Sequence record: DRR723986_3096 | Strand: one strand, 5' to 3' | DNA length: 64,000 nucleotides | Shown here: positions 1,864 to 16,952 of the stretch, in pieces | Position numbering within the stretch: position 1 is the stretch's first letter | How the letters are laid out: each line of letters starts with the position of its first letter | Notes under the pieces: model-generated | What the model was told of the DNA's origin: nothing | Databases searched by the model: none | Seen by the model: the letters and a program-made list of their open reading frames with translations, nothing else | Program-made: the position numbers and the translations under genes

Positions 1864-1935
1864 CCGACTACTCCCCCAATTGAATTCGCAGCCGCAATTT
1901 TCCCTGCACGACAATAGTCATCACTTGAGCAAGCC

Positions 1936-3438: not shown

Positions 3439-3721
3439 AACCTGCGTAAGCCGGTGGGAGGACAGCTTGTTCCTCTGAGCAGGCCGTATCATGCCCGCTC
3501 AGTTCCCGGTATCTTGTAGCTTGCAGGGGTGTCGGAGTGTGTCTTTGGTGTCAGCAAGAGGCATCAGAAAAACGATGATCGCTCGACAATGAGTTCGGGG
3601 CGACTCCAAGCCGAAGTCAAAACTGAACACCTAGTTCGTCCCCCACGGAAATCCTCTCTGGCGAAGTCGGTGTGTTTCGAACGACCAGCCAGTTCTACTT
3701 GTCACGTTGAGGTGAAATAAG

Positions 3722-5419
3722 ATGTGTTTTGCGATTCGCAGGCCCTTGCTTGTAATGCTGCTGGGCCTTCAAGCTTGTCTGGTTTGGAACTTGGGTCTCC
3801 CTGCGGCTTCCGCCCAGTGGAAGCCAACGCCTCAAGCAAAACTCGCTGGTGAACAAGTCGCTGAACACGAGCTGCGTGCCCACATTCGCTACTTGGCAGA
3901 CGATCTACTCGAGGGCCGCGGTCCGAGCTCGCGCGGCGACCGCCTTGGGCAACTCTATATTTCTTCGCAACTCCAAGCCGCTGGGATTCAGCCCGGTGCC
4001 TCCGACGGTTCCTGGTTCCAGTCCGTACCGCTTCGAGGGCTCAAGACAACTCCACCGACCAGCGTAACATTCACTGGGCCCAAAGGCGAGCAACTGCACC
4101 TGAATCATCGAGATGATTTGATGACGGTCAGCGGTCAGGCTCAACCGACTGTTTCGGTCGAGGATTGCGAACTAGTTTTTGTTGGCTACGGAATCCAGGC
4201 TCCCGAATACGACTGGGACGACTTCAAGGGCATGGACATGTCGGGCAAGATTTTGGTCGTCATGAACAATGATCCAGAAGACGATCCTGATCTCTTCGCT
4301 GGCCGACGCCGATTGTACTACGGACGTTGGGATTACAAGTATGAAATGGCTGCCAGGGTCGGCGCTGCCGGGGCGCTCATCATTCACACTACACCATCGG
4401 CTGGGTATCCCTATCAAGTTGTTCAAACGTCATGGAGCGGCGAGGAGTTTGAACTGGCCAATTCAACCGGACCTCGTACAAACTTGAAAGGCTGGGTGAC
4501 TGAGGATTCGGCTTACAAACTGATGAATCTAGCTGGCAAGAATCTTGATGAAATGCGAAAGGCAGCCCAGTCGCGAGATTTTCAGCCGGTACCGCTGGGC
4601 GTAAACCTATCGTGCACGCTGCAGTGCGACGTCCGAGAGCAGACAACAGGGAACGTTCTTGGGGTTCTGCCCGGCAGCGATCCACAACTCAAAGACGAAT
4701 ATGTCGTCTTCATGGCGCACCACGACCACCTAGGACTCGCAGAATCTCGCGATGAAAATGGTGACATGATTTACAACGGCGCCATCGACAATGCATCTGG
4801 AACCGCATCGCTGTTGACGATCGCGCGAGCCGTTGCGGCAATGGAACCTCGGCCAAGACGTTCCATTTTGTTTGCGTTTGTCGGTGCTGAGGAGCAGGGC
4901 CTATTGGGGAGCGAATACCTAGCGGCCAACCCTCCCATGCCAGCGGGGTATATGGCGGCCGTCGTCAACATTGATGGGATCAACCACCTCGGCAAGACAC
5001 ACGACATCAACCTGATCGGAAACGGCAAATCGGATCTCGACGCAATTGTCGAATCGGTTGCTCAGTGGCAAGGGCGAACCGTTGTGCCAGATTATTTCCC
5101 TGACCGCGGATACTATTACCGCAGCGATCAATTCTCATTGGCGAAAGTCGGTGTTCCAGGAGTTTACCTGCACAGCGGGATAAACGTTGTCGGCAAGCCC
5201 GATGGGTGGGGGAAGAAGCGGCTAGACGAATGGGTTGAGAAGACGTACCATCAGCCCAGTGACGAATACGATGCGGACTGGGATCTGGCCGGTGCAATTG
5301 AAGACGCTCAGCTCCTCATGCACGTGGGGCTGGCCGTTGCCGACTCAGACAAGATGCCTGCCTGGGTCGCTGGCGATGAGTTCGAGGCGGCTCGAAAGGC
5401 GGCTATTGCGGACCGTTAA
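3722..5419 (+). CDS. M28 family metallopeptidase with PA domain, secreted
   Basis: Signal peptide; AHHDHLG, NGAIDNASG, GAEEQGLLGS, RSDQFS and YHQPSDE zinc-peptidase motifs; PA insert (LVFVGYGIQAPEYDWDDF). Confidence 0.9.
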   Translation: MCFAIRRPLLVMLLGLQACLVWNLGLPAASAQWKPTPQAKLAGEQVAEHELRAHIRYLADDLLEGRGPSSRGDRLGQLYISSQLQAAGIQPGASDGSWFQSVPLRGLKTTPPTSVTFTGPKGEQLHLNHRDDLMTVSGQAQPTVSVEDCELVFVGYGIQAPEYDWDDFKGMDMSGKILVVMNNDPEDDPDLFAGRRRLYYGRWDYKYEMAARVGAAGALIIHTTPSAGYPYQVVQTSWSGEEFELANSTGPRTNLKGWVTEDSAYKLMNLAGKNLDEMRKAAQSRDFQPVPLGVNLSCTLQCDVREQTTGNVLGVLPGSDPQLKDEYVVFMAHHDHLGLAESRDENGDMIYNGAIDNASGTASLLTIARAVAAMEPRPRRSILFAFVGAEEQGLLGSEYLAANPPMPAGYMAAVVNIDGINHLGKTHDINLIGNGKSDLDAIVESVAQWQGRTVVPDYFPDRGYYYRSDQFSLAKVGVPGVYLHSGINVVGKPDGWGKKRLDEWVEKTYHQPSDEYDADWDLAGAIEDAQLLMHVGLAVADSDKMPAWVAGDEFEAARKAAIADR

Positions 5420-5475
5420 TCAGCCTTGTCGTTCTCGCTCTATCGCTTTCAGATTCGCTTTTCAACGTTTATCCA

Positions 5476-5934
5476 ATGGACCTCAAGCTCATGACCGAAC
5501 ACGAAGAAGACCTTGGCGAGAAGATTATCGCAGCGATTGATGCGAACGATCCTGTACTGCTTGAGAGCCTGTTTCGGGGCGGTGAGTTTATCCTGTATCA
5601 GCAAATTGATACCGAGACGGGTTCCATCGATGAAGACGACGAAGGCAACTTTAGCGTAGTGCTCGCTGAACTCGAAGACTCGGTAGCAGTCGTGTGTTTT
5701 ACGAGCAGCGAAATTGCCGACAGCTTTGTTCAAACGCAAGTGACAGACCTTCCAGAAGGAGCCGTTTTGCCGTCAGTTATGGTCGACGGTGAGTCGCTAC
5801 TGGAGGGCCTGCCGGAAGACTGTGGGCTATTGCTGAACCCTGCCTCGGAGCGGGAGTGCTTCTTTCCGCCCGGGAGTTTCGATCCAGAAGATGGCGACTC
5901 AAGCGATGAGTCAGACGGCGACTTGGAAGCCTGA
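5476..5934 (+). CDS. SseB-like acidic protein
   Basis: AVVCFTS...GLLLNP pattern typical of the SseB N-terminal domain; very acidic. Confidence 0.55.
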   Translation: MDLKLMTEHEEDLGEKIIAAIDANDPVLLESLFRGGEFILYQQIDTETGSIDEDDEGNFSVVLAELEDSVAVVCFTSSEIADSFVQTQVTDLPEGAVLPSVMVDGESLLEGLPEDCGLLLNPASERECFFPPGSFDPEDGDSSDESDGDLEA

Positions 5935-5972
5935 ACACAAGACCGCGGCCGCAGTCTTGCTGCTGCCGCACT

Positions 5973-6036
5973 TCATGACAAGGCGAGTCATGACAAGACT
6001 GAGAACTTAGCGAAGAATCAACTTAGCGAAGAATCA
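5973..6036. repeat. Two pairs of short intergenic direct repeats
   Basis: TCATGACAAG at 5973-5982 and 5988-5997; ACTTAGCGAAGAATCA perfect tandem at 6005-6020 and 6021-6036. Confidence 0.85.
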
Positions 6037-6053
6037 CTGGGAGTTCGATAACG

Positions 6054-6593
6054 ATGAGCGATCAACCACCGATGGGAATGTCTGACCAGGATTTCCTGAG
6101 CAATCAACCACCTGCACCTGGCGGGATGCCACCTTCGGGTTCGAATGCCAAAGCACGATTGACGCCACCAGCTATCGCACTGATTGTTGTGGGTGTAATC
6201 GGCTGCTTGTTCGGGCTGTGGAACGTGGCATCTTCAACGATGAACTACTTGAATCCTGAAGCAGCGCTTGCGGCGCAACAGCAGGCCATCGATGACCTGC
6301 AGAATTCAGAATTACCTGAAGCATACAAAGAGATGCTCAGTGACTGGCTCTCCGCTCCCCCAGGACCGATACCAATCATCATTGGTGCACTCGGGGTGTT
6401 ATGCAGTGCGCTCAGCATTCTCGCTGGTGTTTCAATGCTCCAGCAAAAGCGATACGGCATTTGTATCACGGGTGCAATTGCCGGGATGCTCCCGATATCG
6501 GGCTGCTGTTGCCTTGGCGTGCCATTTGGCATTTGGGCAATTGTCGTTCTGATGAACGCCGACGTTAAGGCCGCATTCCGTAACAGGGCCTAG
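6054..6593 (+). CDS. Planctomycete-type membrane protein (Pro-rich N-terminus, CCCLGxPxGIWA motif)
   Basis: Several hydrophobic helices; C-terminal SGCCCLGVPFGIWAIVVL...VKAAF. Confidence 0.7.
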   Translation: MSDQPPMGMSDQDFLSNQPPAPGGMPPSGSNAKARLTPPAIALIVVGVIGCLFGLWNVASSTMNYLNPEAALAAQQQAIDDLQNSELPEAYKEMLSDWLSAPPGPIPIIIGALGVLCSALSILAGVSMLQQKRYGICITGAIAGMLPISGCCCLGVPFGIWAIVVLMNADVKAAFRNRA

Positions 6594-6597
6594 GGCT

Positions 6598-7821
6598 TTG
6601 ACTGACGGCGATTCACAACCGTTGGTTAGTCGTTTGACGGCGCCGATTCCCGCCGGGATAGCCACTCTGGTCGTTCGCGGCGTGAGTGCTATCGAAGAAG
6701 CGGTGCCGCTGCTCGGACTCCGGACGCAAACGCCAGAGCTAGGGCGTGTCTACTTTGGAGCGGTCAACATCACCAGTGGCCAGGAGCATGCGGTCGTCTG
6801 CCTAACGGAGCCCGACGTGCTTGAGATCCATTGCCATGGCGGCAGGGCAGTTTCACAAGCCATCCTCGACATACTCGGAACGACTTCGGCTCAGGTCGCC
6901 GCGCCCGACGACTATCTTCGGCAAGTCGCATCACTGGTGCAGTATGACGCTCGGTGTGGACTGATCGCGGCCCAGACTGATCGCGCAGCAGCCTATATGC
7001 TTGACCAAGTCAATGGCGCACTTGAGTCTGCGATCGAGCGCCTCATCGCGTCGCTGTCCAGTCGCAACGTTCCCGGTGCACTGCAGTTGCTCTGCGAGAT
7101 GGAAGCCCAATCGACTTTCGCCGATCGTCTGATTGGCGGGTGGGACGTAGTCATCGCTGGTCCCCCAAACGTCGGCAAGAGCAGTTTGCTCAACGCAATC
7201 GTTGGGCGTCAGCGGTCGATTGTGAACCCAGAAGCTGGCACGACTCGGGATTGGGTCGAGGATACGACGGCCATTGATGGTTGGCCAATTCGAGTCTCCG
7301 ATACCGCTGGCGTTCGAAGTAATGCCGGCAGCATCATTGAAAGTGAGGGCATTGCGTTTGCCCAAGACCGGATCCGCGAGGCCGATATCGTGCTCATCGT
7401 TGTCGACCTGACTAAAGCCTGGACGGATGTACATTCTCAAATCGTGAAGGAGCGGATCGACGCACCGAAAAAGGGCGGCTCCAGCGGGGCTCAAGACGCC
7501 TCGAAAATCGTTTGCCTTGCCAACAAAGCTGACCTAGTCTCGGAAGCTGAGCTGTCAGAGGCGCTCCACCGGCTTGGCGAAGCGTTCCCGCAATCGCCCC
7601 CGATCGTCTGCAGTTGCCTGGTCGCAGGTGGCGTCGACGAGGCCATTCAACGCATTGCAAGCATCATCAGCAGCGGTGCGCCGCCCGAGGGTGTTCCTCT
7701 TGCTTCGTCTCCGCCGCTGCAAGCACGAATTCGTGACGCAATCGCTGAGTTGAATGCTGGCAATACCAAAGCAGCCACTGCAATACTGAGCCACTCACTT
7801 GAGAAACCAAGAGCCAACTAG
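6598..7821 (+). CDS. MnmE/TrmE-like GTPase, short, lacking the C-terminal FCxGK
   Basis: N-terminal TrmE-like LEIHCHGG; G1 GPPNVGKS, G2 GTTRD, G3 DTAG, G4 NKAD. Confidence 0.8.
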   Translation: MTDGDSQPLVSRLTAPIPAGIATLVVRGVSAIEEAVPLLGLRTQTPELGRVYFGAVNITSGQEHAVVCLTEPDVLEIHCHGGRAVSQAILDILGTTSAQVAAPDDYLRQVASLVQYDARCGLIAAQTDRAAAYMLDQVNGALESAIERLIASLSSRNVPGALQLLCEMEAQSTFADRLIGGWDVVIAGPPNVGKSSLLNAIVGRQRSIVNPEAGTTRDWVEDTTAIDGWPIRVSDTAGVRSNAGSIIESEGIAFAQDRIREADIVLIVVDLTKAWTDVHSQIVKERIDAPKKGGSSGAQDASKIVCLANKADLVSEAELSEALHRLGEAFPQSPPIVCSCLVAGGVDEAIQRIASIISSGAPPEGVPLASSPPLQARIRDAIAELNAGNTKAATAILSHSLEKPRAN

Positions 7822-7830
7822 CCGGGGAGC

Positions 7831-7865
7831 AAGCCGAGCGGAGAATCCGCTCGAGCTTCTTTATG
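7831..7865 (+). terminator. Candidate intrinsic terminator after the GTPase gene
   Basis: Hairpin CGAGCGGA-GAA-TCCGCTCG with AAGC/GCTT extension, followed by CTTTAT, about 10 bp after the stop codon. Confidence 0.4.
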
Positions 7866-8066
7866 CAGCCTTCCAACCGGTAGCGATTGCTGTAATGGTA
7901 AAGGCGTAGGGATTGCATAGCTTCGGTTGCGTTTTGGCCGCACTGGAGATTCAGCAGCCCGAGAACACCTCAGCTTGAGATACCGCGGAAGTACCAGAAT
8001 GGGTATATTCACACGTCTTGTTCTCGACCTCCCGAATTTCCGCTATCTACTCGACGTGAGTAACCT

Positions 8067-10352
8067 GTGATGATTTCTGCTCAAAGCAACCGTGTGCTCC
8101 TGCTATCTGCGGTAGCTATCGGCGTGATGATGGCCACCACAGTCCGTGGACTGGCCCAATCCAACTACGCAACCAGCGATAGCATGAGCGGCTATGTTCA
8201 TTGGATCGACCTGTACGATGCGGACAACAAAAAGATTGATCCCGAGGGTGAATTCCCGCGTCCTTATTCTCCCGAAAAGACCTGCGGGCGCTGCCATGAC
8301 TACAAACAGATAGCCCACGGCTGGCACTTCAACGCGGTCGATGCCGATTCAATCCACGGGCGGCCGGGGCAGCCATGGATATGGGCAGACGAGCGCTCGG
8401 GCACGTTTCTTCCGCTTTCCTACCGAGGCTGGAAGGGGACGTTCAACCCCGACGACCTCGGGCTGTCCCGATGGCAAGTCGCTGCCAAACTAGGTGGATT
8501 TCTGCCCGGCGGCGGACCAGGATCAGAAGAATCCTTGGCCGAGGCTGCCGAGTTGCTTAAGAAGCTGAAGGCAACACGTAAAGTTACACCAGTGGATGGT
8601 GAAGAGGACGAGCTCCCGCCGGGCTACGAAGACCGCAGTAACGTCACCGGCCCCTTGCCCGTGGACTGCATGATGTGCCACCATCGCTCGGGTAGCGGCT
8701 ACAGTCCGTTTGTGTGGACAGAACAGGTCGAAGAGGAGAACTTCGCGTACGCCCCAACAGCCGCTCTGGGGATTGCGGTTGTTAGCGGGAATTCGAGGCG
8801 TTTGAAGGATGACTTTGATCCGACTGCCGAAGGTGCTCAAGAGAAACTGCCGAAAGTCGACTATTCAAAACAGAAATTCCGAAGTGACGGAAAAGTCTTC
8901 TTTGATTTGATTCGCAAGCCCGACAACGACGCTTGCTACTACTGCCACACCAACTCGCCAACCGAGACCGTTGGCGGTGGACGCTGGCTTCACGATGAAG
9001 ACATCCATGTTCGGGCAGGTATCAAATGTGCCGACTGCCACCGCAACGGCTTGGATCACCATACCGTTCGTGGCTTTGACGGTGAGAACCATCCTTCGGG
9101 TGACGTCGTTTCACTCTCTTGTGCAGGATGCCACCTTGGCACGGACCAGTCTACTGGGCGGCTTGGAGCTCCGCGGCCACTGCACAAAGGCCTTCCGCCG
9201 CTTCACTTTGAAAAGATGACCTGTACCGCTTGCCACGCTGGCAGCATGCCCGCTGACGAAATTGGCTTCCAAATCAACTCAATCGCTCACCGACTTGGGG
9301 AGCACGTCAAACGAACCGGAGAAGAGGCCCCGGGAATCGCCCACTCGATTATCATCCCGATGCAATCCTCCGTCATCGATGACGATCAAGCAAAAGGTAG
9401 CGAGGAGCCAGAACCGGCGGACAAGTCGAACGCGGAAGATGCAGAAGATGTAGCAGAGGCGAACTCGGACGCCAAATCAGACGCGGACGCAAGCCCGAAT
9501 GCTTGGCAGGGTGACGGGCGGTTTGCACCGCATCGAATGATGTGGCCCTCCTACTGGGCCATAAAGCAAAATGATGAGATCACACCGCTCAACCCCGAGA
9601 TGGTTTACGACCTTGTCCGCCGCTCGTTGAAAGTCCGTCGAGAATTCACCGAGGAATTGGGCGATGCGAAACTCTCGCTAAGCGAGCGCAAGAAGCTCTT
9701 GGGCGACGATAGGGCCCGCGTGAAGGAAGACGAGCGAACCGACGAAGAGGCTGCGATTATTGCCAAAGCCGAAGCAGAAGCTCGGACTTTGCAGGTCAAC
9801 GAACGAATCGCAAAGTCGCTAGCCGACATCGAAGAAGCCTTCCCGGGGGCTCAGGCAATCTTCATCAGCGGTGGCATGGGCTTTGTGCGCGATCAAGACG
9901 CCAGCACTGAGGACCGCGGTGAGGAAAATGCTGAGGAAGGTGACGCAGGGAACGACGAAGAAGACGAGGAACCTGTCTGGAAGATTAAGACGCTGGATGC
10001 CTCCCAACTAGGTGATGCGGCAGCACCGTATGCCTGGCCCCAGGCACACAATGTGCGGCCCGCTCAGCAATCTCTGGGTGTAAGCGGATGCACTGAATGC
10101 CACAGTGAAAAATCTAAATTCTTCGGTTCTGTACTTACGCCCGTTGGATTGCTTCCCGACCAAGAAACTCAACCCATCGCGATCCGTGATCTACAGCAGG
10201 TCGACCAAGTCAAACTGGCTGGGTGGAACAGTTTGTTCCAGGGCCGCTCGCTGTTCAAAGTCCTGGGCCTGATCGCTCTTGGGCTCACCTGTGTTGTTGC
10301 CGTCGCCTTTATGGCAATCAACTTAAACGACATGTTCCGGCGCAACAGCTAG
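8067..10352 (+). CDS. Multiheme cytochrome c (7 CxxCH), signal peptide and C-terminal membrane anchor
   Basis: CGRCH, CMMCH, CYYCH, CADCH, CAGCH, CTACH and CTECH; N-terminal signal peptide; hydrophobic C-terminal helix. Confidence 0.88.
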   Translation: MMISAQSNRVLLLSAVAIGVMMATTVRGLAQSNYATSDSMSGYVHWIDLYDADNKKIDPEGEFPRPYSPEKTCGRCHDYKQIAHGWHFNAVDADSIHGRPGQPWIWADERSGTFLPLSYRGWKGTFNPDDLGLSRWQVAAKLGGFLPGGGPGSEESLAEAAELLKKLKATRKVTPVDGEEDELPPGYEDRSNVTGPLPVDCMMCHHRSGSGYSPFVWTEQVEEENFAYAPTAALGIAVVSGNSRRLKDDFDPTAEGAQEKLPKVDYSKQKFRSDGKVFFDLIRKPDNDACYYCHTNSPTETVGGGRWLHDEDIHVRAGIKCADCHRNGLDHHTVRGFDGENHPSGDVVSLSCAGCHLGTDQSTGRLGAPRPLHKGLPPLHFEKMTCTACHAGSMPADEIGFQINSIAHRLGEHVKRTGEEAPGIAHSIIIPMQSSVIDDDQAKGSEEPEPADKSNAEDAEDVAEANSDAKSDADASPNAWQGDGRFAPHRMMWPSYWAIKQNDEITPLNPEMVYDLVRRSLKVRREFTEELGDAKLSLSERKKLLGDDRARVKEDERTDEEAAIIAKAEAEARTLQVNERIAKSLADIEEAFPGAQAIFISGGMGFVRDQDASTEDRGEENAEEGDAGNDEEDEEPVWKIKTLDASQLGDAAAPYAWPQAHNVRPAQQSLGVSGCTECHSEKSKFFGSVLTPVGLLPDQETQPIAIRDLQQVDQVKLAGWNSLFQGRSLFKVLGLIALGLTCVVAVAFMAINLNDMFRRNS

Positions 10353-10400
10353 TATGATAACGATCAAGCAATCGTCGACGACAATACGGACAGAATCGAA

Positions 10401-11018
10401 ATGGGACTACTGAATATCATAGCTGCGGTCGCTGGCACGCCTGTAGAACCGACCGATCCACTCGGGCGATTCTTGCAGTACGCCACATTTGACATGGGCA
10501 TGCTGGCCGCTTTGGCTTGCACCATCGCAGGCTTAGTCATTCTTGGCGGATTTAGTCTCATGACCGGGCGCGGCGTTTCAACACACTCACCGCACCATTG
10601 GTTCTCGAAACTGCTTTATGCAGGATTCCTCGCGACGGTGATCGTCTTATCCGTCAGTTCGTTTGCGTCGATCTTGTTATTCGATCACATGCTTGGCTAC
10701 ATGCTATTGGCCCACATCGGCGCTGCAGGCGGTTTTGTCTTCCTTCTACTAGCGATCGCTTTGTTCTATCTCCCTCGTGGCAAGAGCCAACGTGGCGGTA
10801 CGGAGCATCGTTGGTGGGTCGCCCGCTGGTCCGCCTGGATCATGGTGGCGGCTGGAATCGTGACCGCTGCCACAATGTTCCTCAGCATGCTGCCGATCCT
10901 CGGCTCCGATGGCTTGCACGAAGCGGTGGCCATTCACCGCTGGTCAGGACTGATCGTAGTTGTTTCCGCAATCTTTCACCTCTTCGCACTTTGCCTTACA
11001 CGTACCGGCCTACGCTAA
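10401..11018 (+). CDS. Integral membrane protein, cytochrome b-like partner of the multiheme cytochrome
   Basis: About 5 transmembrane helices with intramembrane His (LLAHIG, AIHRWSG, IFHLF); co-oriented 48 bp downstream of the multiheme gene. Confidence 0.6.
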   Translation: MGLLNIIAAVAGTPVEPTDPLGRFLQYATFDMGMLAALACTIAGLVILGGFSLMTGRGVSTHSPHHWFSKLLYAGFLATVIVLSVSSFASILLFDHMLGYMLLAHIGAAGGFVFLLLAIALFYLPRGKSQRGGTEHRWWVARWSAWIMVAAGIVTAATMFLSMLPILGSDGLHEAVAIHRWSGLIVVVSAIFHLFALCLTRTGLR

Positions 11019-11117
11019 TCGGCCACAACAAATCCCGGTTCGGGGCCCGATGCGGATCATTTGGGCACCAAGCTGGAAACGCCCAACCGACGAGTCCATA
11101 CTCTAGAGAGATTTACA

Positions 11118-13049
11118 ATGCCCGTTCGAAGTCTCTTTCGTAAACAACCGTCCAAGAATACGTTTCGGACATTACAGTCAGAAGAACTTGAAAGCCGCAG
11201 GCTCCTGGCCCTCAACCCAACGGCCATGGAGCAAGAGTTTCTTCAACGCGTCAATCGGATTCGAACCGATCCGGCTGGTGAGTTCAGTCGCATGTTCTCG
11301 CGCGTCAGCCCGCTAACTGCTCGTGATAGCTCCGTCCAAACGGCAGTCGACTTCTTCGACGTCAACGGAACTACGCTTCGGAATGAACTCGCCGCCTTGC
11401 CTGCAACTCATCCTCTCATGTGGAGCGAAGGCACTTACGACTTCGCGGCAGCACACAACCAGCGAATGATAGCCTCCGGCAGCCAATTCCACTCCAATAC
11501 ACTCCAGCGGCGGCAGGCGCTGCTTGATGCTGGGGTGAATCTGAGGTTTGCCAGTGGTGAAAAGATCAACTCCGAGAACGTGTACGCGTACGCCGAGTCT
11601 GCCGACCACCTGTTTGCAAGTTACATTGTGGATTGGGGCAACGGCCCGGGGGGCATGCAGCCTCAACGTGGCCACCGAACGGCAATCATGAACCCAGATT
11701 TTGAACAGGTCGGACACAAAATCAGCCCCTACAGCGGCAACGGTCTTGGCCCCAATATGAATACCCAGGTGCTGGTCAATATTCAAGATCCTCCAGCGAT
11801 GGTTGGTGGAGCATTGTTTGAAGACAAAGACGACTCTGGATGGTACGACGGTGGCGAAGGGATCGGTCGGGCGACGCTAACCTTTGAGGGAGAAGCGGGG
11901 ACGTTCCAAACGACCACGATGAACGCGGGCGGTTATCAATTAGAGTTACCAGCCGGGATCTATCAAGTAACTGCTACCGGAGGCGGGATGCGGCATCCGG
12001 TCGTGAAAAGCGGCGTTGTGGTCAGCGACACGAATGTCTGGCAGAACTTGATCTACGATCCTGACGCAATCCCGGCAGATGGGCGGGAAGCAAACAACTC
12101 GACCGCAACTGCGACTGAGCTGTCTGGCTCAAATCAATCGTTGACTCAATTGTCAATTCACTTGGCCAGTGATCGCGACTACTTCAAATTGGTTTCGCCA
12201 AGCAGCGGCAATGGGTTGTTCCGAATCACGTTTAACAACTCATCAGGCAACCTGGACCTATACCTGCTTGATTCAAGCGGACGGGTCTTGGATTCATCAA
12301 CGGGCAATGGCAATAGCGAACAACTCCAAGCTCAATTGACTCGCGACACGACCTACTACGCAATGGTGCGTGGCAAGAGCACCGCGACCAACGGCCAGTA
12401 CACCTTACGCGTCGAGCCCCCGCAACCGATCCCACCTGTTGCGGCATCTGATCGTGCTTCAGCCGTCAACGCTACTCGATCCAGCACCATTCGCGTGCTG
12501 GACAATGACAACGACCCAGACGGACCGAACAGCGCTTTGCAGGCCGAGCTTGCACCTGGCACGCACAGTGCCTTTAGCTTAGATGGCTCTGTTGTGCAAT
12601 ACGCCGCACCGGATGGATACAGCGGTGTTCATCGAGCTAGCTATACGCTTCGTGATGATCAAGGACTCACGGCGACGGGACGCATAGAAGTGCTGGTTGT
12701 TGACTTTTCGGCCAGCTTTCCGTGGCTGAACGAGCAGCTAAATACGGACGTTAACGACGACGGTTTGACCACGCCATCGGACGTCTTGACGATCATTAAC
12801 GACTTGAACAGCACCGGCTCCCGCACGCTGCCTAGCAGCCATGTTGGTGCGGCTGGCCTCCAAGGCTTTGTTGACACCAATGCGGACGGCTTCATCTCTC
12901 CAATTGATGCGCTACTGGTCATCAACTTGTTGAACTCTGGCAGTGGCGAAGGCGAAGCGGCCCCACCTGCGACCACCGACCAGGCCCTCGCCCAGTTGTC
13001 GGCCTTCGACTATCACGAGACGCTCCGACGACGACGCGCAATTCGCTAG
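11118..13049 (+). CDS. Secreted multidomain protein: planctomycete extracellular signal, CAP/SCP domain, PPC-like, Ig/cadherin-like, dockerin
   Basis: ELESRRLLA signal; EQEFLQRVNRIR...GHRTAIMNPDFEQVG (CAP); DRDYF...NLDLYL (PPC-like); VLDNDNDPDG; DVNDDGLTTPSDVL and DTNADGFISPIDAL (dockerin). Start placed at ATG 11118. Confidence 0.8.
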   Translation: MPVRSLFRKQPSKNTFRTLQSEELESRRLLALNPTAMEQEFLQRVNRIRTDPAGEFSRMFSRVSPLTARDSSVQTAVDFFDVNGTTLRNELAALPATHPLMWSEGTYDFAAAHNQRMIASGSQFHSNTLQRRQALLDAGVNLRFASGEKINSENVYAYAESADHLFASYIVDWGNGPGGMQPQRGHRTAIMNPDFEQVGHKISPYSGNGLGPNMNTQVLVNIQDPPAMVGGALFEDKDDSGWYDGGEGIGRATLTFEGEAGTFQTTTMNAGGYQLELPAGIYQVTATGGGMRHPVVKSGVVVSDTNVWQNLIYDPDAIPADGREANNSTATATELSGSNQSLTQLSIHLASDRDYFKLVSPSSGNGLFRITFNNSSGNLDLYLLDSSGRVLDSSTGNGNSEQLQAQLTRDTTYYAMVRGKSTATNGQYTLRVEPPQPIPPVAASDRASAVNATRSSTIRVLDNDNDPDGPNSALQAELAPGTHSAFSLDGSVVQYAAPDGYSGVHRASYTLRDDQGLTATGRIEVLVVDFSASFPWLNEQLNTDVNDDGLTTPSDVLTIINDLNSTGSRTLPSSHVGAAGLQGFVDTNADGFISPIDALLVINLLNSGSGEGEAAPPATTDQALAQLSAFDYHETLRRRRAIR

Positions 13050-13315
13050 CAGCCGCATCGACCGGCAAGCTAGTTGCACGTTCTTGCAAACGCAGTGAAC
13101 GAGTCCTGACAGTAAGCAGTAGGCAGAGTCGCCACGCCGTAGTGCAGGCAGCCCGCCTGCAGCCGCTTTATCACGCGATCCCAACTTAGCAGGCTCAGGA
13201 CAATTGGCATTCTTCGCAGTGCAGGTTCGCCTGCGGAGACCAGGGATCATCCCAACGCAACTTGGCGTAAACCACACTTCCACCAACCGGCGCAATGCGA
13301 GGGCCTTGGCTGTAG

Positions 13316-14311
13316 TCAACGAGGGCCACGGTCGCCTCCTGCAATGGGCCGGAGCTGCTCCGTCTCAGCCTTCTGTGCTTGGCGTAGCATCTCGGCCATG
13401 CTGGGCCCCTGGGCGGCTTCCTGGATGGCTCGGCGGCGTTGTTGGCGGTAGTCGCTTGGTGGCTTCTTCGGTCGCCGGCGTGGCAGCGGGTCGCCCTGGA
13501 GCCAGCCTTTGTGAGCCGCGACACTCGGATGAGCTTGCATGAGCCGCGAGTAGAGAACGTTGGCTGGAATTCGCCAACGCGACGGGTTGAGACGCAGCGA
13601 TCGTTGGTACCAACGGGCGATGGCCATCAGGTGCCGAGTAGAGCAGCCTTTGCCGAGGGCGTCGGCGACGACGCGGTTGGCTGTTGCGATGCCAAGATCC
13701 ACAAAGACACTCACCACCACTTCGCGGGGCACGGCTTTGGCGTGAGAGTGCGAATCACAGTGGTGGTTTTCTTTTAGTCTTCTGTGGTGTTCCCTGGACA
13801 CAGTGTCCGATGCCCTGGACAAAGTGTCCGATACCTCCCGGCTAGTGTCCGCTACTTCCGGACAGGTGTCCGATGCCTCTCGGCTGGGCAACACTGGCTG
13901 CGGTCGTGGTGAAGTTGTTGGCTGGGGGTGATCAACTCGCAGCAGTTTGAGCTCGTTCCAAACGATCCGATAGTGATTGAGCACGCCGCTGCAGCAGGGC
14001 TTGGGTGTCACGATCAGCAGGCTGAGTCGCTGGAGTGCGTCGCAGGCCCTTTTGACCGTCTTGGTACTGCGTTTCATCCGCTGGGCGATGTGCTTCTGGC
14101 TTGGCCAAGCTTCGGCGTTGTTACCGAGGTGGGCGTTGATCGCACTGAGGACACCGGCCATTGCGTTTGCCGAAACGGGGCGTCCGTCCGACGCGATGCC
14201 GGTCGGCAGTTTGGATTGTACGATAAGTTCTTCGCGCTCCACCCATGTCCAGTCAAATTCCGCCTGCGCAGCCTGGTCGGCTTGTTGTTCGTTCATTCGG
14301 TTCGCATCCAA
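13316..14311 (-). CDS. Helix-turn-helix protein, phage or integrative-element replication initiator-like
   Basis: AWPSQKHIAQRMKRSTKTVKRACDAL...NHYRI is a winged-HTH pattern; the central linker carries 7-aa repeats (SREASDT/CPEVADT/SREVSDT/LSRASDT). Confidence 0.75.
   Translation of the reverse strand: MDANRMNEQQADQAAQAEFDWTWVEREELIVQSKLPTGIASDGRPVSANAMAGVLSAINAHLGNNAEAWPSQKHIAQRMKRSTKTVKRACDALQRLSLLIVTPKPCCSGVLNHYRIVWNELKLLRVDHPQPTTSPRPQPVLPSREASDTCPEVADTSREVSDTLSRASDTVSREHHRRLKENHHCDSHSHAKAVPREVVVSVFVDLGIATANRVVADALGKGCSTRHLMAIARWYQRSLRLNPSRWRIPANVLYSRLMQAHPSVAAHKGWLQGDPLPRRRPKKPPSDYRQQRRRAIQEAAQGPSMAEMLRQAQKAETEQLRPIAGGDRGPR
13792..13875. repeat. Four tandem 21-bp iteron-like repeats (putative origin) inside the HTH gene
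   Basis: CCCTGGACACAGTGTCCGATG, CCCTGGACAAAGTGTCCGATA, CCTCCCGGCTAGTGTCCGCTA and CTTCCGGACAGGTGTCCGATG. Three of the four contain the dyad GGACA-N2/3-TGTCC. Confidence 0.8.
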
Positions 14312-14542
14312 TTTGCTTCAATCGACTTTGCTCATCCAAGCTAGGTCGACACCAAATCTAGTTCCGCGCGGGTCCAACCCGCAGCAACTTCCAACGGTCC
14401 AGACAGTTCCTCCTTCGAGGCCGCATCCAGCGGCAGAACGGGCGGTTGCAAACGATTCGGGCTTCGCCCTTTTTGTATTGCCAAAGCCTTTTCTCCCTGA
14501 CCGTGCGGACCGCTGCCCGTTATCTAGCCTCAAGCGGCGTGG

Positions 14543-14570
14543 TTGACTCGAAGAATTTTTCGACTAGTCT
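14543..14570 (+). promoter_or_regulatory. Candidate sigma70-type promoter for the PEP-CTERM gene
   Basis: TTGACT-N16-TAGTCT, with an imperfect palindrome TCGAAGAATTTTTCGA across the spacer. Confidence 0.35.
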
Positions 14571-14617
14571 CTAAAACTCGTCCAACTACTGCTCATGAAG
14601 TAAGGTACATACACACC

Positions 14618-15220
14618 GTGACGCGTTGTAATTCCAACCTTTTGCTCGTTGTTTTCTTGATCCTTGCGACTACTGGTGAAGCTAGGGCCGACCTGATCTA
14701 CAGATTGCGAGACGGTACCATTAGCCCACAGGGGCGCAACCCGTTAAATCTAAGCGGAACCTTGCCCCTGGAAATATCTTTCACGATCAAAAGTGGTGTA
14801 GTTGATACAAGCTCAAATGTCGAATCTGCCGTATTTCAAGCTTCCAATATTACCGTACTTATCGACGGAATCGCGGCGACGATTGTGAATCCTGCACCAG
14901 TTCAATTTCGAGATAATGCAGGACCGACTGATTTCATAAGTTGGAGTCATAGTACGATCGAGTATCAAGGTCATCAGGGGATAATGGGCTTCATGGTTCG
15001 TTTTGACGACGACTTGTTTCATTTCCCGAACGCACAAGCGGTTGCGCCGAACTTTGGAAACACGACGACCGACTTCCAGGGTGGTAGTGGCTTCGCTGAG
15101 AACACCTTCTCTGACTTTCAGGCTGGTTCTCGTGTGACTGTTTCAGCCGTACCTGAACCATCCAGTTTTTCTCTTCTTGCAATGGTTGCTTTTGTCGGCT
15201 GCAATCGGCGAAAACGCTGA
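14618..15220 (+). CDS. PEP-CTERM sorting domain protein
   Basis: Signal peptide ending ARA-DL and C-terminal VPEPSSFSLLAMVAFVGCNRRKR. Start placed at GTG 14618; the ORF is open from 14543. Confidence 0.85.
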   Translation: MTRCNSNLLLVVFLILATTGEARADLIYRLRDGTISPQGRNPLNLSGTLPLEISFTIKSGVVDTSSNVESAVFQASNITVLIDGIAATIVNPAPVQFRDNAGPTDFISWSHSTIEYQGHQGIMGFMVRFDDDLFHFPNAQAVAPNFGNTTTDFQGGSGFAENTFSDFQAGSRVTVSAVPEPSSFSLLAMVAFVGCNRRKR

Positions 15221-15413
15221 AGTCATGTCGTTCAATGCATGAACCCAGCGGTGGTCTGTTGGTCGGCAGCGAATTCGAACTCTGAGTCCGTAGACTCGAG
15301 CTGCGATGACAGATTTCACCTCGTCAATTGGGGTTCGGCAGGACCACGGACGGGACCACGGCGTGCGGATTACCCTGCGTTTGCAGGGCCCGCCGAGTCT
15401 TAGGAAGACTCGT

Positions 15414-15910
15414 TTACCCGGTCGCTTCCTTCCACGTTTCGTCGGTCACCATCGCATAATTGCGAGTGGCCACCTCCGGGGAATTGCCCACCCATTCGCA
15501 AGCAGCGTGGAGCGAGAAGCGAGTGATCAACTCGGTTTCACGCGTCGCACGGATTCTGGTGAACAGCCTGGGCCAGTCGTAGTTCAAGTCGTCGCGAGCC
15601 TGGCGGACAAACCGCTGTGGATCGCTGGCAACGCTGGGTAACAAATGATCGCTCGGAGAGTCGCTTCTCCGCTGCCCCCACAGCCTTTCCAGGTATGGCG
15701 ACAGTTCTTCAAACAGTGGCGTCTCGCGTACGATCGGCGGGCCCCGGCTACTCAGCTTGCTGTCGGGAACATGCAGCCGCTTGTTCTCCCAGTCGACGTG
15801 CGACCATCGGAGCGTCTGCAGTTCACTGGGGACGTGAACTCCCGACCAACGAGCGATGGCCTGGCCGCATGCAGTTCTGCATCGCGACGAAAGGCGTCAA
15901 TCAGGTTCTG
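15414..15910 (-). pseudogene. Tyrosine recombinase/integrase, catalytic-domain remnant (frameshifted, 5'-truncated)
   Basis: Reading upstream in frame from the 76-aa ORF gives AIARWSGVHVPSELQTLRWSHVDWENKRLHVPDSK...RETPLFEEL...WPRLFTRIRATRETEL...CEWVGNSPEVATRNY, a planctomycete integrase pattern. The box I Arg reads His, and the preceding LIDAFRRDAELHAA lies in another frame (shift near 15861). Confidence 0.8.
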
Positions 15911-16034
15911 CAGATACCAATGGCAGTGGTGTTGTGCCAGACTCGTACTCCAGCGAAAAGCACCGGCAACACCGCGTGATGCCAAGCGGTCGCGAAAGCC
16001 CAAAAAACATTTGGGAAACGCTGCAGTCACCAAG

Positions 16035-16107
16035 TACCCCGTAAAGGATTCGAACCTCTGTTTTCGGACGGATAGTCCGATGTCCTGGGCCGCTAGACGA
16101 ACGGGGC
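16035..16107 (-). tRNA. tRNA with AUC anticodon (nominally Asp) on a tRNA-Glu-type body; CCA not encoded
   Basis: Reverse complement: GCCCCGT TC GTCTAGCGGCCCAGGAC A TCGGA CTATCCG TCCGA AAAC AGAGG TTCGAAT CCTTT ACGGGGT A. It folds into a full cloverleaf with anticodon loop CT-ATC-CG. Confidence 0.88.
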
Positions 16108-16175
16108 GGGATGTGTGAGCAAGAGTTTGTTGTGTCGTCGAGTGAATAACGCGAGGGAGGAACAAGACAAGGCAT

Positions 16176-16952
16176 CTAATACGAGCTGGGCGACTGGGTC
16201 TCCTGGCCGTCTTTGGTGACGAGCATTTCGGCAATGTCCGCTGCCTCAGAGGCAAACGTTTGAACTGCACCATCAGCCATCGCCACGTTGGTAACTCCAC
16301 CAGCGTGGTTGGTTCTCCCCTGCAGCGAGCTTACGAACTCTGGCAGCGTCGTGTCTGCCGGTTCCATCCAACGAACCGCTAAGTTCTCTGGGACTTCAAC
16401 AAGCAAAATCGTATTGGGCGATCCATCGATGATCTCCCTGTAGCGCGTTGACCCCGAACCGGAAAAAACCCCTTGTGGGTGAACGACAGCTACGTAATTG
16501 GTGTACCCCTGCGGGATTGGCGACGACGGACAGCGATAGGCTTCAATCTCCATCGATTGCAAGAATGAATTCGCAGGGTCGTCCCACGGCTTAGTCAAGT
16601 CAATCTGCTCGTACAGCGCCATTTGTCCCATGTAGGGCAGAATGAGCGTTCGCCACGAGTGCAACTTGCGGCCATTTTCACCGACCGTGTATGCGGGTGG
16701 TAAGGCCCGGTAGACCGACTCATAGTTCAGCAACGCCAGCGCGATCTGCTTTTCATTGTTGGAACACTGCATCCGGCGAGCAGCCTCTCTTGCCGCCTGA
16801 ACTGCCGGAAGTAGAAGGCCGACCATGATTCCGCCACAAACTAGCAGGACGGGCACGGCGACAGCGGCGATAACGATTATCGAGATACCTGCGCCGGACT
16901 TTGTAGGACGCGGCGAGTTTTCGGGGTATAGCTGCGGAGGTGTGGTCGACAT
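16176..16952 (-). CDS. DUF1559 family protein
   Basis: LLLPAVQAAREAARRMQCSNNEKQIALAL, HSWRTLILPY, DGSPNTI and the C-terminal HAGGVTNVAMADG motif. Confidence 0.9.
   Translation of the reverse strand: MSTTPPQLYPENSPRPTKSGAGISIIVIAAVAVPVLLVCGGIMVGLLLPAVQAAREAARRMQCSNNEKQIALALLNYESVYRALPPAYTVGENGRKLHSWRTLILPYMGQMALYEQIDLTKPWDDPANSFLQSMEIEAYRCPSSPIPQGYTNYVAVVHPQGVFSGSGSTRYREIIDGSPNTILLVEVPENLAVRWMEPADTTLPEFVSSLQGRTNHAGGVTNVAMADGAVQTFASEAADIAEMLVTKDGQETQSPSSY

What the first reader, a model, noticed from the sequence alone, without database searches (positions are those of the whole stretch)
16035..16107. Chimeric tRNA: Glu-identity body with an AUC (Asp) anticodon and C37
Seen: an intact cloverleaf with anticodon loop C-U-A-U-C-C-G, U11:A24, U13:G22, a 4-nt variable loop (A46, no 47), G1:U72 and A73. 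Known: U11:A24, U13:G22:A46 and the missing base 47 are E. coli tRNA-Glu determinants. tRNA-Asp normally has G34, C38 and G73, all absent here. A34 is rare in bacteria outside tRNA-Arg(ACG), and position 37 is almost always a purine. Inference: it could be a GAU-specific decoder, a Glu-charged missense tRNA reading Asp codons, a non-ribosomal or stress tRNA-like RNA, or a decaying tRNA-Glu kept as an integration site. Intact stems argue for selection.
Basis: partly seen in the sequence, partly recalled or inferred. Interest (0 to 1): 0.78.

Follow-up and report, generated by a model that had tools for sequence, protein, structure and literature searches.

The report
Glutamate tRNA with aspartate anticodon
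This is a real, well-folded planctomycete tRNA gene: the lineage's ordinary second glutamate tRNA (anticodon CUC) with two changed letters in its anticodon loop, so it now carries an aspartate-type anticodon, and its function, if any, is not shown.

Summary
A 73-nt tRNA lies on the minus strand at 16107..16035 (Rfam tRNA 51.2 bits; ARAGORN Asp-atc) with anticodon loop CUAUCCG (A34, C37).

It is not an assembly error. The same loop is in a contig of another planctomycete MAG (L003/G001), and two Logan contigs from different studies match it with 0 differences.

It is not a chimera. The closest, syntenic relative (G562; AccD 97% aa) has at the same place a normal tRNA-Glu(CUC) that differs at only four positions: 16, 26, 34 and 37. 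G1:U72, A73, G38, U11:A24, U13:G22 and the 4-nt variable loop are traits of this family's tRNA-Glu(CUC), and C37 recurs in 4 of 58 normal CUC copies.

So it is the tRNA-Glu(CUC) gene with C34>A and A37>C. G001 also has Asp(GUC) and Glu(UUC) but no CUC copy was found. No dedicated synthetase paralog was seen. No RNA data exist.

Best reading: a tolerated variant of a dispensable isoacceptor, still Glu-like, at most a weak reader of GAU. A selected Asp-to-Glu mistranslator remains possible. The variant's distribution conflicts with the protein-based tree, and this is unexplained. Interest is moderate.

The parts
16035..16107 (-). 73-nt tRNA gene. It has the tRNA-Glu(CUC)-lineage body (G1:U72, A73, U11:A24, U13:G22, 4-nt variable loop) with anticodon loop CUAUCCG. 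CCA is not encoded.
   Evidence: ARAGORN; Rfam RF00005 51.2 bits; 69 of 73 identical to the syntenic tRNA-Glu(CUC) of G562; all stem pairs standard.
16071..16073 (-). Anticodon A34-U35-C36. A34 is the T at 16073 on the + strand. Relatives have C34.
   Evidence: Sequence. The same A34 is in L003 and in Logan contigs X1 record 2 and X4 record 13 with 0 differences. It is C in G562 and in 58 family copies.
16070..16070 (-). C37, a pyrimidine 3' of the anticodon. It is A in G562 and in most relatives.
   Evidence: Sequence. C37 is also present in L003 and in 4 of 58 normal CUC copies of the family (L013, L033, L088, L111).
13050..16034 (.). Window-specific 3-kb segment at the tRNA's 3' end. It holds an HTH_36 / replication-initiator-like ORF (13316-14311, minus strand), a PEP-CTERM ORF (14543-15220) and two small ORFs. 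It is probably the remnant of a mobile element.
   Evidence: It has no counterpart in G562, whose contig C15 is collinear with window 82-13030 only. Pfam HTH_36; PHROG replication-initiation hits at 1.5e-06 and 4.4e-06. No integrase remnant and no repeat of the tRNA 3' part.
16176..16952 (-). DUF1559 (planctomycete) gene directly upstream of the tRNA, 68 nt away. It is the first gene of the block syntenic with G562.
   Evidence: Pfam PF07596, 3.3e-44. blastn window 16342-16882 vs G562:C116 364-904 at 70%, followed by the ABC transporter, AccD and kinase at 71-84%.

Best explanation
The gene is this lineage's second glutamate tRNA, tRNA-Glu(CUC), carrying two substitutions in the anticodon loop (C34>A and A37>C). 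This part is shown. How it works is inferred. It keeps the whole Glu-type body, so it should be transcribed, processed and folded like its CUC parent. If it is charged at all, the amino acid should be glutamate, probably less efficiently, because positions 34 and 37 are GluRS determinants in E. coli. With an unmodified A34 it would pair best with GAU, so at most it inserts a little Glu at Asp codons in competition with the normal tRNA-Asp(GUC). C37 and a possible C32:G38 pair should make it a poor decoder. GAA and GAG can be read by tRNA-Glu(UUC), and GAU and GAC by tRNA-Asp(GUC). That makes the CUC isoacceptor dispensable, and the variant is a tolerated, near-neutral or mildly hypomorphic allele rather than a new dedicated system.
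For: Orthology: G562 is the nearest relative by three markers. AccD is 97% aa against 90% for G001. FGGY kinase is 94% against 83%. S49 peptidase is 85% against about 63%. G562 is syntenic from the tRNA through DUF1559, the ABC transporter, AccD and the kinase. Its tRNA is Glu(CUC) with loop CUCUCAG and is 69 of 73 identical to the window's; the differences are at 16, 26, 34 and 37.

Lineage traits: G1:U72 in 23 of 23 aligned members. 499 of 499 stem cells pair, and 10 of 21 pairs show compensatory changes, with 0 of 500 shuffles as high.

C37 is tolerated: it occurs in 4 of 58 normal CUC copies, and G37 in 1 of 58.

Redundancy: G001 has Asp(GUC) and Glu(UUC), and no CUC copy was found.

No dedicated partner: no aaRS gene beside the tRNA, and no GluRS-family paralog specific to G001 among the 5 genomes compared.

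Identity sets come from the passages read in PMC9976931. U35, C36, U11-A24, U13-G22:A46 and the missing 47 are present. Y34 and A37 are absent. Of the Asp set, only U35 and C36 are present.

Background: ANN tRNAs of split codon boxes occur sporadically in bacteria and always beside the GNN tRNA (section 14 of preprint 10.64898/2026.05.15.725136). Six other sporadic Glu-body/AUC genes were found in unrelated lineages.

Rarity: no other AUC copy among 151 family genomes or 49 genus genomes searched.
Against: The identical loop, plus C16, is shared by the window, the G001 contig and a third context (X4 record 13, which has a different upstream flank). The window and G001 copies differ at four other positions (26, 43, 45, 73), and none of these breaks the cloverleaf, so the allele has persisted and stayed intact. 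Four-fold sites between the two genomes are saturated: 140 of 216 differ. If the allele is old, it has been kept by selection.

This tRNA lineage shows other stable oddities: G33 with a G1-A72 mismatch in 4 genomes, and 8-9-nt loops in 4 genomes. This hints that the gene may serve something other than plain decoding.

Both loop changes hit GluRS determinant positions, which could mean redirection rather than drift.

No expression, charging or proteome data exist either way.
Confidence: 0.5

Rival explanations
1. A selected dual-identity tRNA. It is charged with Glu by the ordinary GluRS through its body determinants and reads GAU through A34, giving regulated low-level Asp-to-Glu mistranslation. 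This would be analogous to the Streptomyces tRNAProX family.
For: The Glu body with an Asp anticodon and A34 parallels tRNAProX, whose anticodons AGC, AUU and AGU all begin with A34 (passages of PMC10404621 and PMC11415595). The allele is shared by three sequence contexts and has only structure-neutral differences. The body is under strong structural constraint. Asp-to-Glu is a conservative change. In some bacteria GluRS identity rests mainly on the augmented D helix and the missing 47 (PMC9976931 passage on A. ferrooxidans GluRS1).
Against: No dedicated synthetase paralog is next to the tRNA or specific to G001. It lacks the other tRNAProX hallmarks: it has U33 where they have A33. It is rare: 1 of 49 genus genomes, and the closest relative has CUC. 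C37 and C32:G38 predict weak decoding. No expression data.
Confidence: 0.2
2. A Glu-tRNA kept for a non-ribosomal use, for example as Glu donor for glutamyl-tRNA reductase in tetrapyrrole synthesis or for another tRNA-dependent enzyme. The body is then constrained and the anticodon loop is free to drift.
For: Across the family the body is highly conserved while the loop is unusually plastic. Position 37 is A, C or G. Four genomes have 8-9-nt loops, four have G33 variants, and there is the AUC variant. That glutamyl-tRNA reductase reads the tRNA core and not the anticodon is recalled knowledge, not from a call.
Against: 58 of 68 family copies keep a CUC anticodon in a 7-nt loop, as expected of a working GAG decoder. 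No tRNA-dependent enzyme gene is adjacent. Charging would still need GluRS. The expanded loops are single-genome observations in MAGs and may include indel errors.
Confidence: 0.12
3. A by-product of mobile-element traffic at a tRNA attachment site. The allele was introduced or spread by site-specific or homologous recombination with an island's tRNA-like att segment. This would explain why it appears in non-sister genomes.
For: In L003 a tyrosine-integrase gene starts about 140 nt past the tRNA 3' end (Pfam 3.6e-11, PHROG integrase 5.8e-21). The window has a specific 3-kb segment with a replication-initiator-like gene at the same side. The 3' flanks differ in all three genomes. Contigs break at the tRNA in both G001 and G562. 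The tRNA gene tree groups the window with G001 through C16, A34 and C37, against the protein tree.
Against: No direct repeat of the tRNA 3' part in the window or in L003. No integrase remnant in the window. The shared derived sites lie in the 5' two-thirds of the tRNA, whereas islands normally supply the 3' part. The 3' parts of the window and G001 copies differ at 43, 45 and 73. Mis-binning of the 6.3-kb accessory contig C756 would explain the tree conflict more simply.
Confidence: 0.08
4. A true tRNA-Asp(AUC): a Glu tRNA gene recruited to Asp identity, charged by AspRS and decoding GAU.
For: The anticodon has U35 and C36. The G001 copy has G73.
Against: Only 2 of the 5 strong Asp determinants are present (G73, G34 and C38 are absent), and it lacks G1-C72 and G2-C71. 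It is 46 of 74 identical to G001's real tRNA-Asp but 69 of 73 identical to Glu(CUC). G73 also occurs in normal CUC copies. A normal Asp(GUC) is present in G001.
Confidence: 0.05
5. A sequencing or assembly artefact.
For: None was found. The Logan support is from low-depth contigs (depth 2-2.9), and X1 may be the source sample.
Against: The same loop is in an independent MAG contig and in a contig of a different study with 0 differences over 72 nt.
Confidence: 0.02

Closest known systems
Bacterial tRNA-Glu(CUC), the second Glu isoacceptor, as found in the same planctomycete family
   Same: Syntenic position and 69 of 73 identical to the nearest relative's copy. Same acceptor stem with G1:U72, the same augmented D helix (U11:A24, U13:G22, A46, no 47), T arm, G38 and A73.
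   Different: A34 instead of C34 and C37 instead of A37. The Rfam tRNA score is 51.2 bits against 58-60 for four normal copies.
tRNAProX family of Streptomyces and Kitasatospora (tRNAProA, tRNAProN, tRNAProT): natural dual-identity mistranslating tRNAs
   Same: The body of one amino-acid identity is combined with an A34-starting anticodon of another amino acid, and it is annotated by its anticodon (passages of PMC10404621 and PMC11415595).
   Different: tRNAProX genes sit beside a dedicated ProRSx, have A33, G21 and A15:A48, and are shown to mistranslate in E. coli. Here there is no dedicated synthetase, U33 is normal, and no functional data exist.
Sporadic ANN-anticodon tRNAs of split codon boxes in bacteria (survey in preprint 10.64898/2026.05.15.725136)
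   Same: A rare A34 anticodon in a two-fold box, sporadic distribution, and co-occurrence with the GNN tRNA (section 14 read; G001 has Asp(GUC)).
   Different: Those are described as B34A changes within the cognate backbone (Asp-tRNA-AUC). Here the change crosses the box boundary: a Glu backbone acquires the Asp anticodon. It is accompanied by A37>C.
tRNA genes used as attachment sites of integrative islands
   Same: Variable, mobile-type DNA starts within a few bases of the tRNA 3' end. An integrase is adjacent in L003.
   Different: No att direct repeat and no integrase in the window. This explains the surroundings, not the anticodon.

Membership tests
tRNA (Rfam RF00005) | Cloverleaf scoring above the gathering threshold of 29 bits, full length | tested here: met
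   51.2 bits, model positions 1-71. ARAGORN call. All 21 stem pairs are standard.
tRNA-Glu (E. coli identity set, PMC9976931) | U11-A24, the U13-G22:A46 triple and absence of nucleotide 47 (augmented D helix) | tested here: met
   Read from the sequence. These columns are invariant in 24 aligned family members. Identity set from the passage.
tRNA-Glu (E. coli identity set, PMC9976931) | Anticodon-loop determinants U34 (C34 in CUC isoacceptors), U35, C36 and A37 | tested here: not met
   U35 and C36 are present. Position 34 is A and position 37 is C. C37 is, however, tolerated in 4 of 58 CUC copies of this family.
tRNA-Glu(CUC) ortholog group of this planctomycete family | Sequence similarity and synteny with bona fide CUC copies | tested here: met
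   69 of 73 identical to the G562 copy at the syntenic place. The 30 best family matches apart from L004 (L012-L040) comprise 28 Glu(CUC) and one copy with an 8-nt loop.
tRNA-Asp (bacterial identity set, PMC9976931 section 29) | G73, G34, U35, C36 and C38, plus G1-C72 and G2-C71 | tested here: not met
   Only U35 and C36 are present. The tRNA has A73, A34, G38, G1:U72 and C2-G71. It is 46 of 74 identical to G001's tRNA-Asp(GUC).
tRNAProX-like dual-identity tRNA | Body identity differs from anticodon identity, with A34 | tested here: met
   Glu body with AUC anticodon.
tRNAProX-like dual-identity tRNA | A dedicated synthetase paralog encoded beside the tRNA | tested here: not met
   The neighbours are DUF1559, small ORFs, ABC transporter genes and AccD. 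PF00749 counts: G001 2, G312 3, G204 4, G269 2, G380 2, with none specific to G001. The window's own genome is not held.
tRNAProX-like dual-identity tRNA | Demonstrated mistranslation | not testable with these tools
   No RNA run holds the stretch. No proteome data.
tRNA pseudogene | Broken stems or lost invariant loop nucleotides | tested here: not met
   No unpaired stem cell. The D-loop and T-loop columns that are invariant in the family are all kept.
Island attachment site in a tRNA gene | An adjacent integrase and a direct repeat of the tRNA 3' part at the far end | tested here: inconclusive
   An integrase is adjacent in L003, but no repeat lies within its 6.3 kb. The window has no integrase and no repeat within 16 kb, although the 3-kb flank is window-specific.

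The most novel reading that the evidence does not exclude
A naturally maintained Glu-charged tRNA with an AUC anticodon that puts glutamate at GAU (Asp) codons. It would be a second bacterial class of deliberate sense-codon mistranslators after tRNAProX, working without a dedicated synthetase. It would be one case within a planctomycete tRNA-Glu lineage whose anticodon loop is repeatedly remodelled (C37 or G37, G33, 8-9-nt loops) on a fixed body.
Probability: 0.2. Interest if true: 0.8.

Novelty: new variant of a known kind. Interest (0 to 1): 0.45.

Why it matters
Natural bacterial tRNAs whose body and anticodon specify different amino acids are very few, and tRNAProX is the one described family. 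A34 anticodons in split codon boxes are almost absent in nature, for reasons still debated. This gene is a clean case. The parent allele (CUC/A37) and the derived allele (AUC/C37) sit at the same syntenic place in sister species, so the effect of exactly two substitutions on charging, decoding and fitness could be tested directly. If the tRNA proves inert, it illustrates how a redundant isoacceptor drifts, and it warns that anticodon-based annotation mislabels it as tRNA-Asp.

Tried and rejected
1. One search was a mistake. The pattern had 16 N instead of 14 between the anticodon and the T loop, and even G001 gave 0 hits.

2. No whole genome is held for the window, so its full tRNA and synthetase sets could not be checked. 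G001 was used as a stand-in.

4. Expression: no RNA holder was listed for the stretch. This says nothing about expression.

5. Promoter and terminator scan of 15800-16400: 0 sites of either kind. It is a sigma-70 consensus scan and is not informative for planctomycetes.

6. Search for a displaced tRNA 3' fragment (attR) in the window and L003: only chance-level matches of 14 nt or less.

7. tblastn of the L003 integrase against the window: nothing below E 4.5.

8. Placing contig C756 phylogenetically by its own genes: no orthologs in G562, G312 or G520, with one 42% partial hit. Its binning to G001 could therefore not be verified.

9. Metagenome scan for more window-type copies: 4 hits, all other lineages with A37.

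10. Using the low tRNA divergence between the window and G001 as proof of selection on the AUC state (4 of 68 against 140 of 216 four-fold sites) was dropped as decisive. The closer relative G562 has CUC, so the time spent in the AUC state is unknown.

11. Literature: a full-text search for 'AUC anticodon' + tRNA + bacteria gave 1 paper, which was not opened and looks unrelated by its title and abstract. I found no report of a Glu-body AUC tRNA. This rests only. Supplementary tables of the ANN survey preprint could list such genes and were not available.

12. One search was rejected for a badly formed search term and was not repeated.

13. Rfam did not list L013's C37/CUC tRNA at gathering threshold although ARAGORN calls it. 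This was not followed up.

Full report
**1. What is there**

The window carries one tRNA gene, on the minus strand at 16107..16035. ARAGORN calls it tRNA-Asp with anticodon atc. Rfam's tRNA model scores it at 51.2 bits over its full length, E 4.6e-08.

Read in its own orientation, it has the following features:
- a 7-bp acceptor stem beginning with G1:U72, and discriminator A73
- a D stem of G10-C25, U11-A24, C12-G23 and U13-G22
- an anticodon stem UCGGA/UCCGA with loop C-U-A-U-C-C-G
- a 4-nt variable loop and a standard T arm
- no encoded CCA

One further point is that C32 and G38 can pair. The minimum-free-energy fold draws a 6-bp stem with a 5-nt loop (-25.7 kcal/mol, z -1.97, which is not remarkable for a single tRNA). 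The surrounding genes (DUF1559, PSD1/PSCyt, DUF1501, PEP-CTERM, dockerin) fit a Planctomycetota genome.

**2. Not an artefact**

I scanned the species-representative genomes for a Glu-type D arm, a YTATC anticodon loop and the T loop. This gave 3 hits. One, L003, is a contig of a planctomycete MAG (genome handle G001). It carries the same CUAUCCG loop and differs from the window at four other positions: 26, 43, 45 and 73.

I then laid Logan contigs of four public DNA runs on the region.
- X1 record 2 covers 16064-16498 with 0 differences.
- X4 record 13, from a different study, covers 16040-16111 with 0 differences and then continues into an upstream flank unlike the window's.
- Both span the anticodon and position 37.
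- Other contigs in these runs show C34 and A37. They have other flanks and belong to co-occurring relatives with normal tRNA-Glu(CUC).

These are contigs at depth 2-3, not raw reads, and X1 may be the window's source sample. No RNA run holds the stretch.

**3. What it derives from**

BLAST of the tRNA against 151 genomes of G001's family matched 95 of them. The 30 best matches apart from G001 itself are tRNA-Glu(CUC), except for one copy with an 8-nt loop. After fetching 40 more matches, ARAGORN gave 68 calls on 69 loci:

| Class | Count |
|---|---|
| Glu(CUC) with 7-nt loop | 58 |
| Glu(UUC) | 6 |
| Expanded loop (8 or 9 nt) | 4 |

This lineage has G1:U72 in 23 of 23 aligned members. It has A73 or G73, usually G38, and the augmented D helix. 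On an alignment of 24 distinct members including the window, 499 of 499 stem cells pair and 10 of 21 pairs show compensatory changes, with 0 of 500 shuffles as high.

So G1:U72, A73 and G38 are lineage traits, not peculiarities of this gene. C37 is not unique either. It occurs in 4 of 58 normal CUC copies (L013, L033, L088, L111), and G37 in one more.

**4. The parent allele**

In G001's genus, 25 of 49 genomes matched. One of them, G562, has a tRNA 69 of 73 identical to the window's, with loop CUCUCAG. The differences are at positions 16, 26, 34 and 37.

G562 is the window's nearest relative by three proteins:

| Marker | G562 | G001 | G312 |
|---|---|---|---|
| AccD | 97% | 90% | 86% |
| FGGY kinase | 94% | 83% | 86% |
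| S49 peptidase | 85% | about 63% | 65% |

G562 is also syntenic. Its tRNA, DUF1559, ABC transporter, AccD and Ser/Thr kinase follow in the same order at 70-84% DNA identity. On the other side, its contig C15 is collinear with window 82-13030.

The window's gene is therefore the ortholog of tRNA-Glu(CUC) with C34>A and A37>C. It is a doubly point-mutated Glu tRNA, not a chimera. Normal copies score 58-60 bits on Rfam's tRNA model, against 51.2 here.

**5. Surroundings**

The tRNA's 3' flank differs within a few bases in all three genomes.
- In L003, a tyrosine-integrase gene lies about 140 nt downstream. The rest of that 6.3-kb contig has no orthologs in G562, G312 or G520.
- In the window, the 3 kb between the tRNA and the dockerin gene (13050-16034) has no counterpart in G562. 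It encodes an HTH_36 / replication-initiator-like protein.
- I found no integrase remnant and no repeat of the tRNA's 3' part in the window.

The tRNA is thus a hot spot for accessory DNA, as tRNA genes often are. That does not by itself explain the anticodon.

**6. An unexplained distribution**

By proteins the tree is ((window, G562), G001). By the tRNA, the window and the G001 contig share three derived states (C16, A34, C37). G562 keeps the outgroup states, and position 26 is a window-specific change.

Four explanations are possible:
- the allele is ancestral and G562 reverted
- it arose twice
- it moved laterally
- the short accessory contig C756 is mis-binned in a MAG of more than 800 contigs, and really comes from a sister of the window's organism

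I could not decide between these.

This matters for the selection argument. Four-fold degenerate sites are saturated between the window and G001 (140 of 216 differ) and between the window and G562 (84 of 138), while the tRNAs differ at 4 positions in each comparison. The tRNA lineage is therefore under strong purifying selection. How long the AUC state itself has been maintained is unknown.

What can be said is this. The four differences between the two AUC copies (A26G, A43G which keeps a U:G pair, A45G, A73G) leave the cloverleaf intact. The allele is seen in three different flank contexts.

**7. Which amino acid, which codon**

The passages I read in the identity review (PMC9976931) give these sets.
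- E. coli tRNA-Glu: strong determinants U34, U35, C36 and A37, plus U11-A24, U13-G22:A46 and the missing 47.
- tRNA-Asp: G73, G34, U35, C36 and C38, plus G1-C72 and G2-C71 in bacteria.

The window tRNA has the whole structural Glu set with U35 and C36, but not position 34 or 37. Of the Asp set it has only U35 and C36. It is 46 of 74 identical to G001's real tRNA-Asp(GUC). Glutamate is therefore the likelier charge, if the tRNA is charged at all.

According to the start of the abstract of PMC11066159 shown in the listing, unmodified A34 pairs most strongly with U, modestly with C, and weakly with G and A. A Glu-charged form would thus mainly touch GAU. In the window's long ORFs the usage per 1000 codons is GAU 27.6, GAC 36.0, GAA 33.0 and GAG 27.3.

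That bacterial TadA is specific for the ACG loop of tRNA-Arg is my recollection. The preprint I read notes that some other ANN tRNAs are edited, so I34 cannot be excluded.

G001 has a normal Asp(GUC) and Glu(UUC), and no CUC copy was found. G001 is an incomplete MAG.

**8. Comparison with known cases**

The nearest described parallel is the tRNAProX family. These are Pro-type bodies with AGC, AUU or AGU anticodons, all beginning with A34. They are encoded beside a dedicated ProRSx and are shown to mistranslate in E. coli (passages of PMC10404621 and PMC11415595).

Here no synthetase gene is nearby. No GluRS-family paralog is specific to G001 among the five genomes compared. U33 is normal.

A 2026 preprint (10.64898/2026.05.15.725136; abstract, passages and section 14 read) reports the following:
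- 695 non-ACG ANN genes among about 246,000 bacterial tRNAs
- those of split codon boxes occur sporadically and always beside the GNN tRNA
- overexpressed Asp-tRNA(AUC) mildly slows E. coli growth

The present gene fits that sporadic pattern, with the twist that the backbone is Glu and not Asp. Six other Glu-body/AUC genes turned up in unrelated lineages, all with A37.

**9. Verdict**

The 'chimera' reading is replaced by 'tRNA-Glu(CUC) ortholog with C34>A and A37>C'.

| Reading | Confidence |
|---|---|
| Tolerated, probably weakly active allele of a dispensable isoacceptor | about 0.5 |
| Selected Asp-to-Glu mistranslator | about 0.2 |
| Non-ribosomal Glu-tRNA role | about 0.12 |
| Recombination by-product at an island attachment site | about 0.08 |
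| True tRNA-Asp | about 0.05 |
| Artefact | about 0.02 |

The wider plasticity of this tRNA's anticodon loop in the family may deserve its own look. It includes C37 or G37, G33 with a G1-A72 mismatch in four genomes, and 8-9-nt loops in four genomes.

Noticed in passing
L039 (G450), L087 (G413), L116 (G454), L092 (G453): Four family genomes carry, in place of a normal tRNA-Glu(CUC), a copy with the same conserved body but an expanded anticodon loop: 8 nt in three and 9 nt in one. ARAGORN reports 4-base or undetermined anticodons. Each is seen in a single genome, so indel errors are not excluded.
   Followed up: partly
L127, L129, L130, L131, L140 (G528, G521, G557 twice, G556): Genus members carry a UUC version of this tRNA with G33 in place of the near-universal U33, and a G1-A72 mismatch at the top of the acceptor stem. 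It recurs in four genomes, so it is likely real.
   Followed up: no
L013, L033, L088, L111, L086; L118, L119, L121: Position 37 of otherwise normal tRNA-Glu(CUC) genes is C in four family genomes and G in four others. A pyrimidine at 37 is very unusual for tRNAs in general. Rfam did not list L013's copy at gathering threshold.
   Followed up: partly
L001, L002 (genome contigs); L044-L047 (metagenome contigs): Six other Glu-type tRNA bodies with an AUC anticodon and A37 occur in unrelated lineages (a Saccharibacteria MAG, an alphaproteobacterial MAG and four metagenome contigs). L047's copy sits in a Lys / AUC / Asp(GUC) / Phe tRNA cluster.
   Followed up: no
L071 = G001:C141:2200-2970: A cluster of four low-scoring, unusual tRNA genes (Ala-tgc, Glu-ttc, Leu-taa, Ser-tga) in G001. 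It looks like a phage or mobile-element tRNA array.
   Followed up: no
L147 18879-19697 = G562:C15 about 54.9-55.7 kb: A tight array of six tRNA genes (Glu-ttc, Gly-gcc, Met, Asn, His, Ser-gct) lies in the more than 20 kb of G562 DNA that follows the dockerin gene and has no counterpart in the window.
   Followed up: no
window 13316-14311 (minus strand): A 331-aa ORF with an HTH_36 domain and weak PHROG hits to phage replication-initiation proteins lies in a 3-kb segment absent from the closest relative. It is probably the remnant of a small integrated element.
   Followed up: partly
G001:C572:4126-4983, G312:C4:205561-206523, G204:C332:38406-39257: A roughly 350-aa truncated GluRS-family ORF, the size of a GluQRS/YadB-type paralog (that name is recalled, not from a call), is present in G001, G312 and G204 but was not found in G269 or G380.
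   Followed up: no
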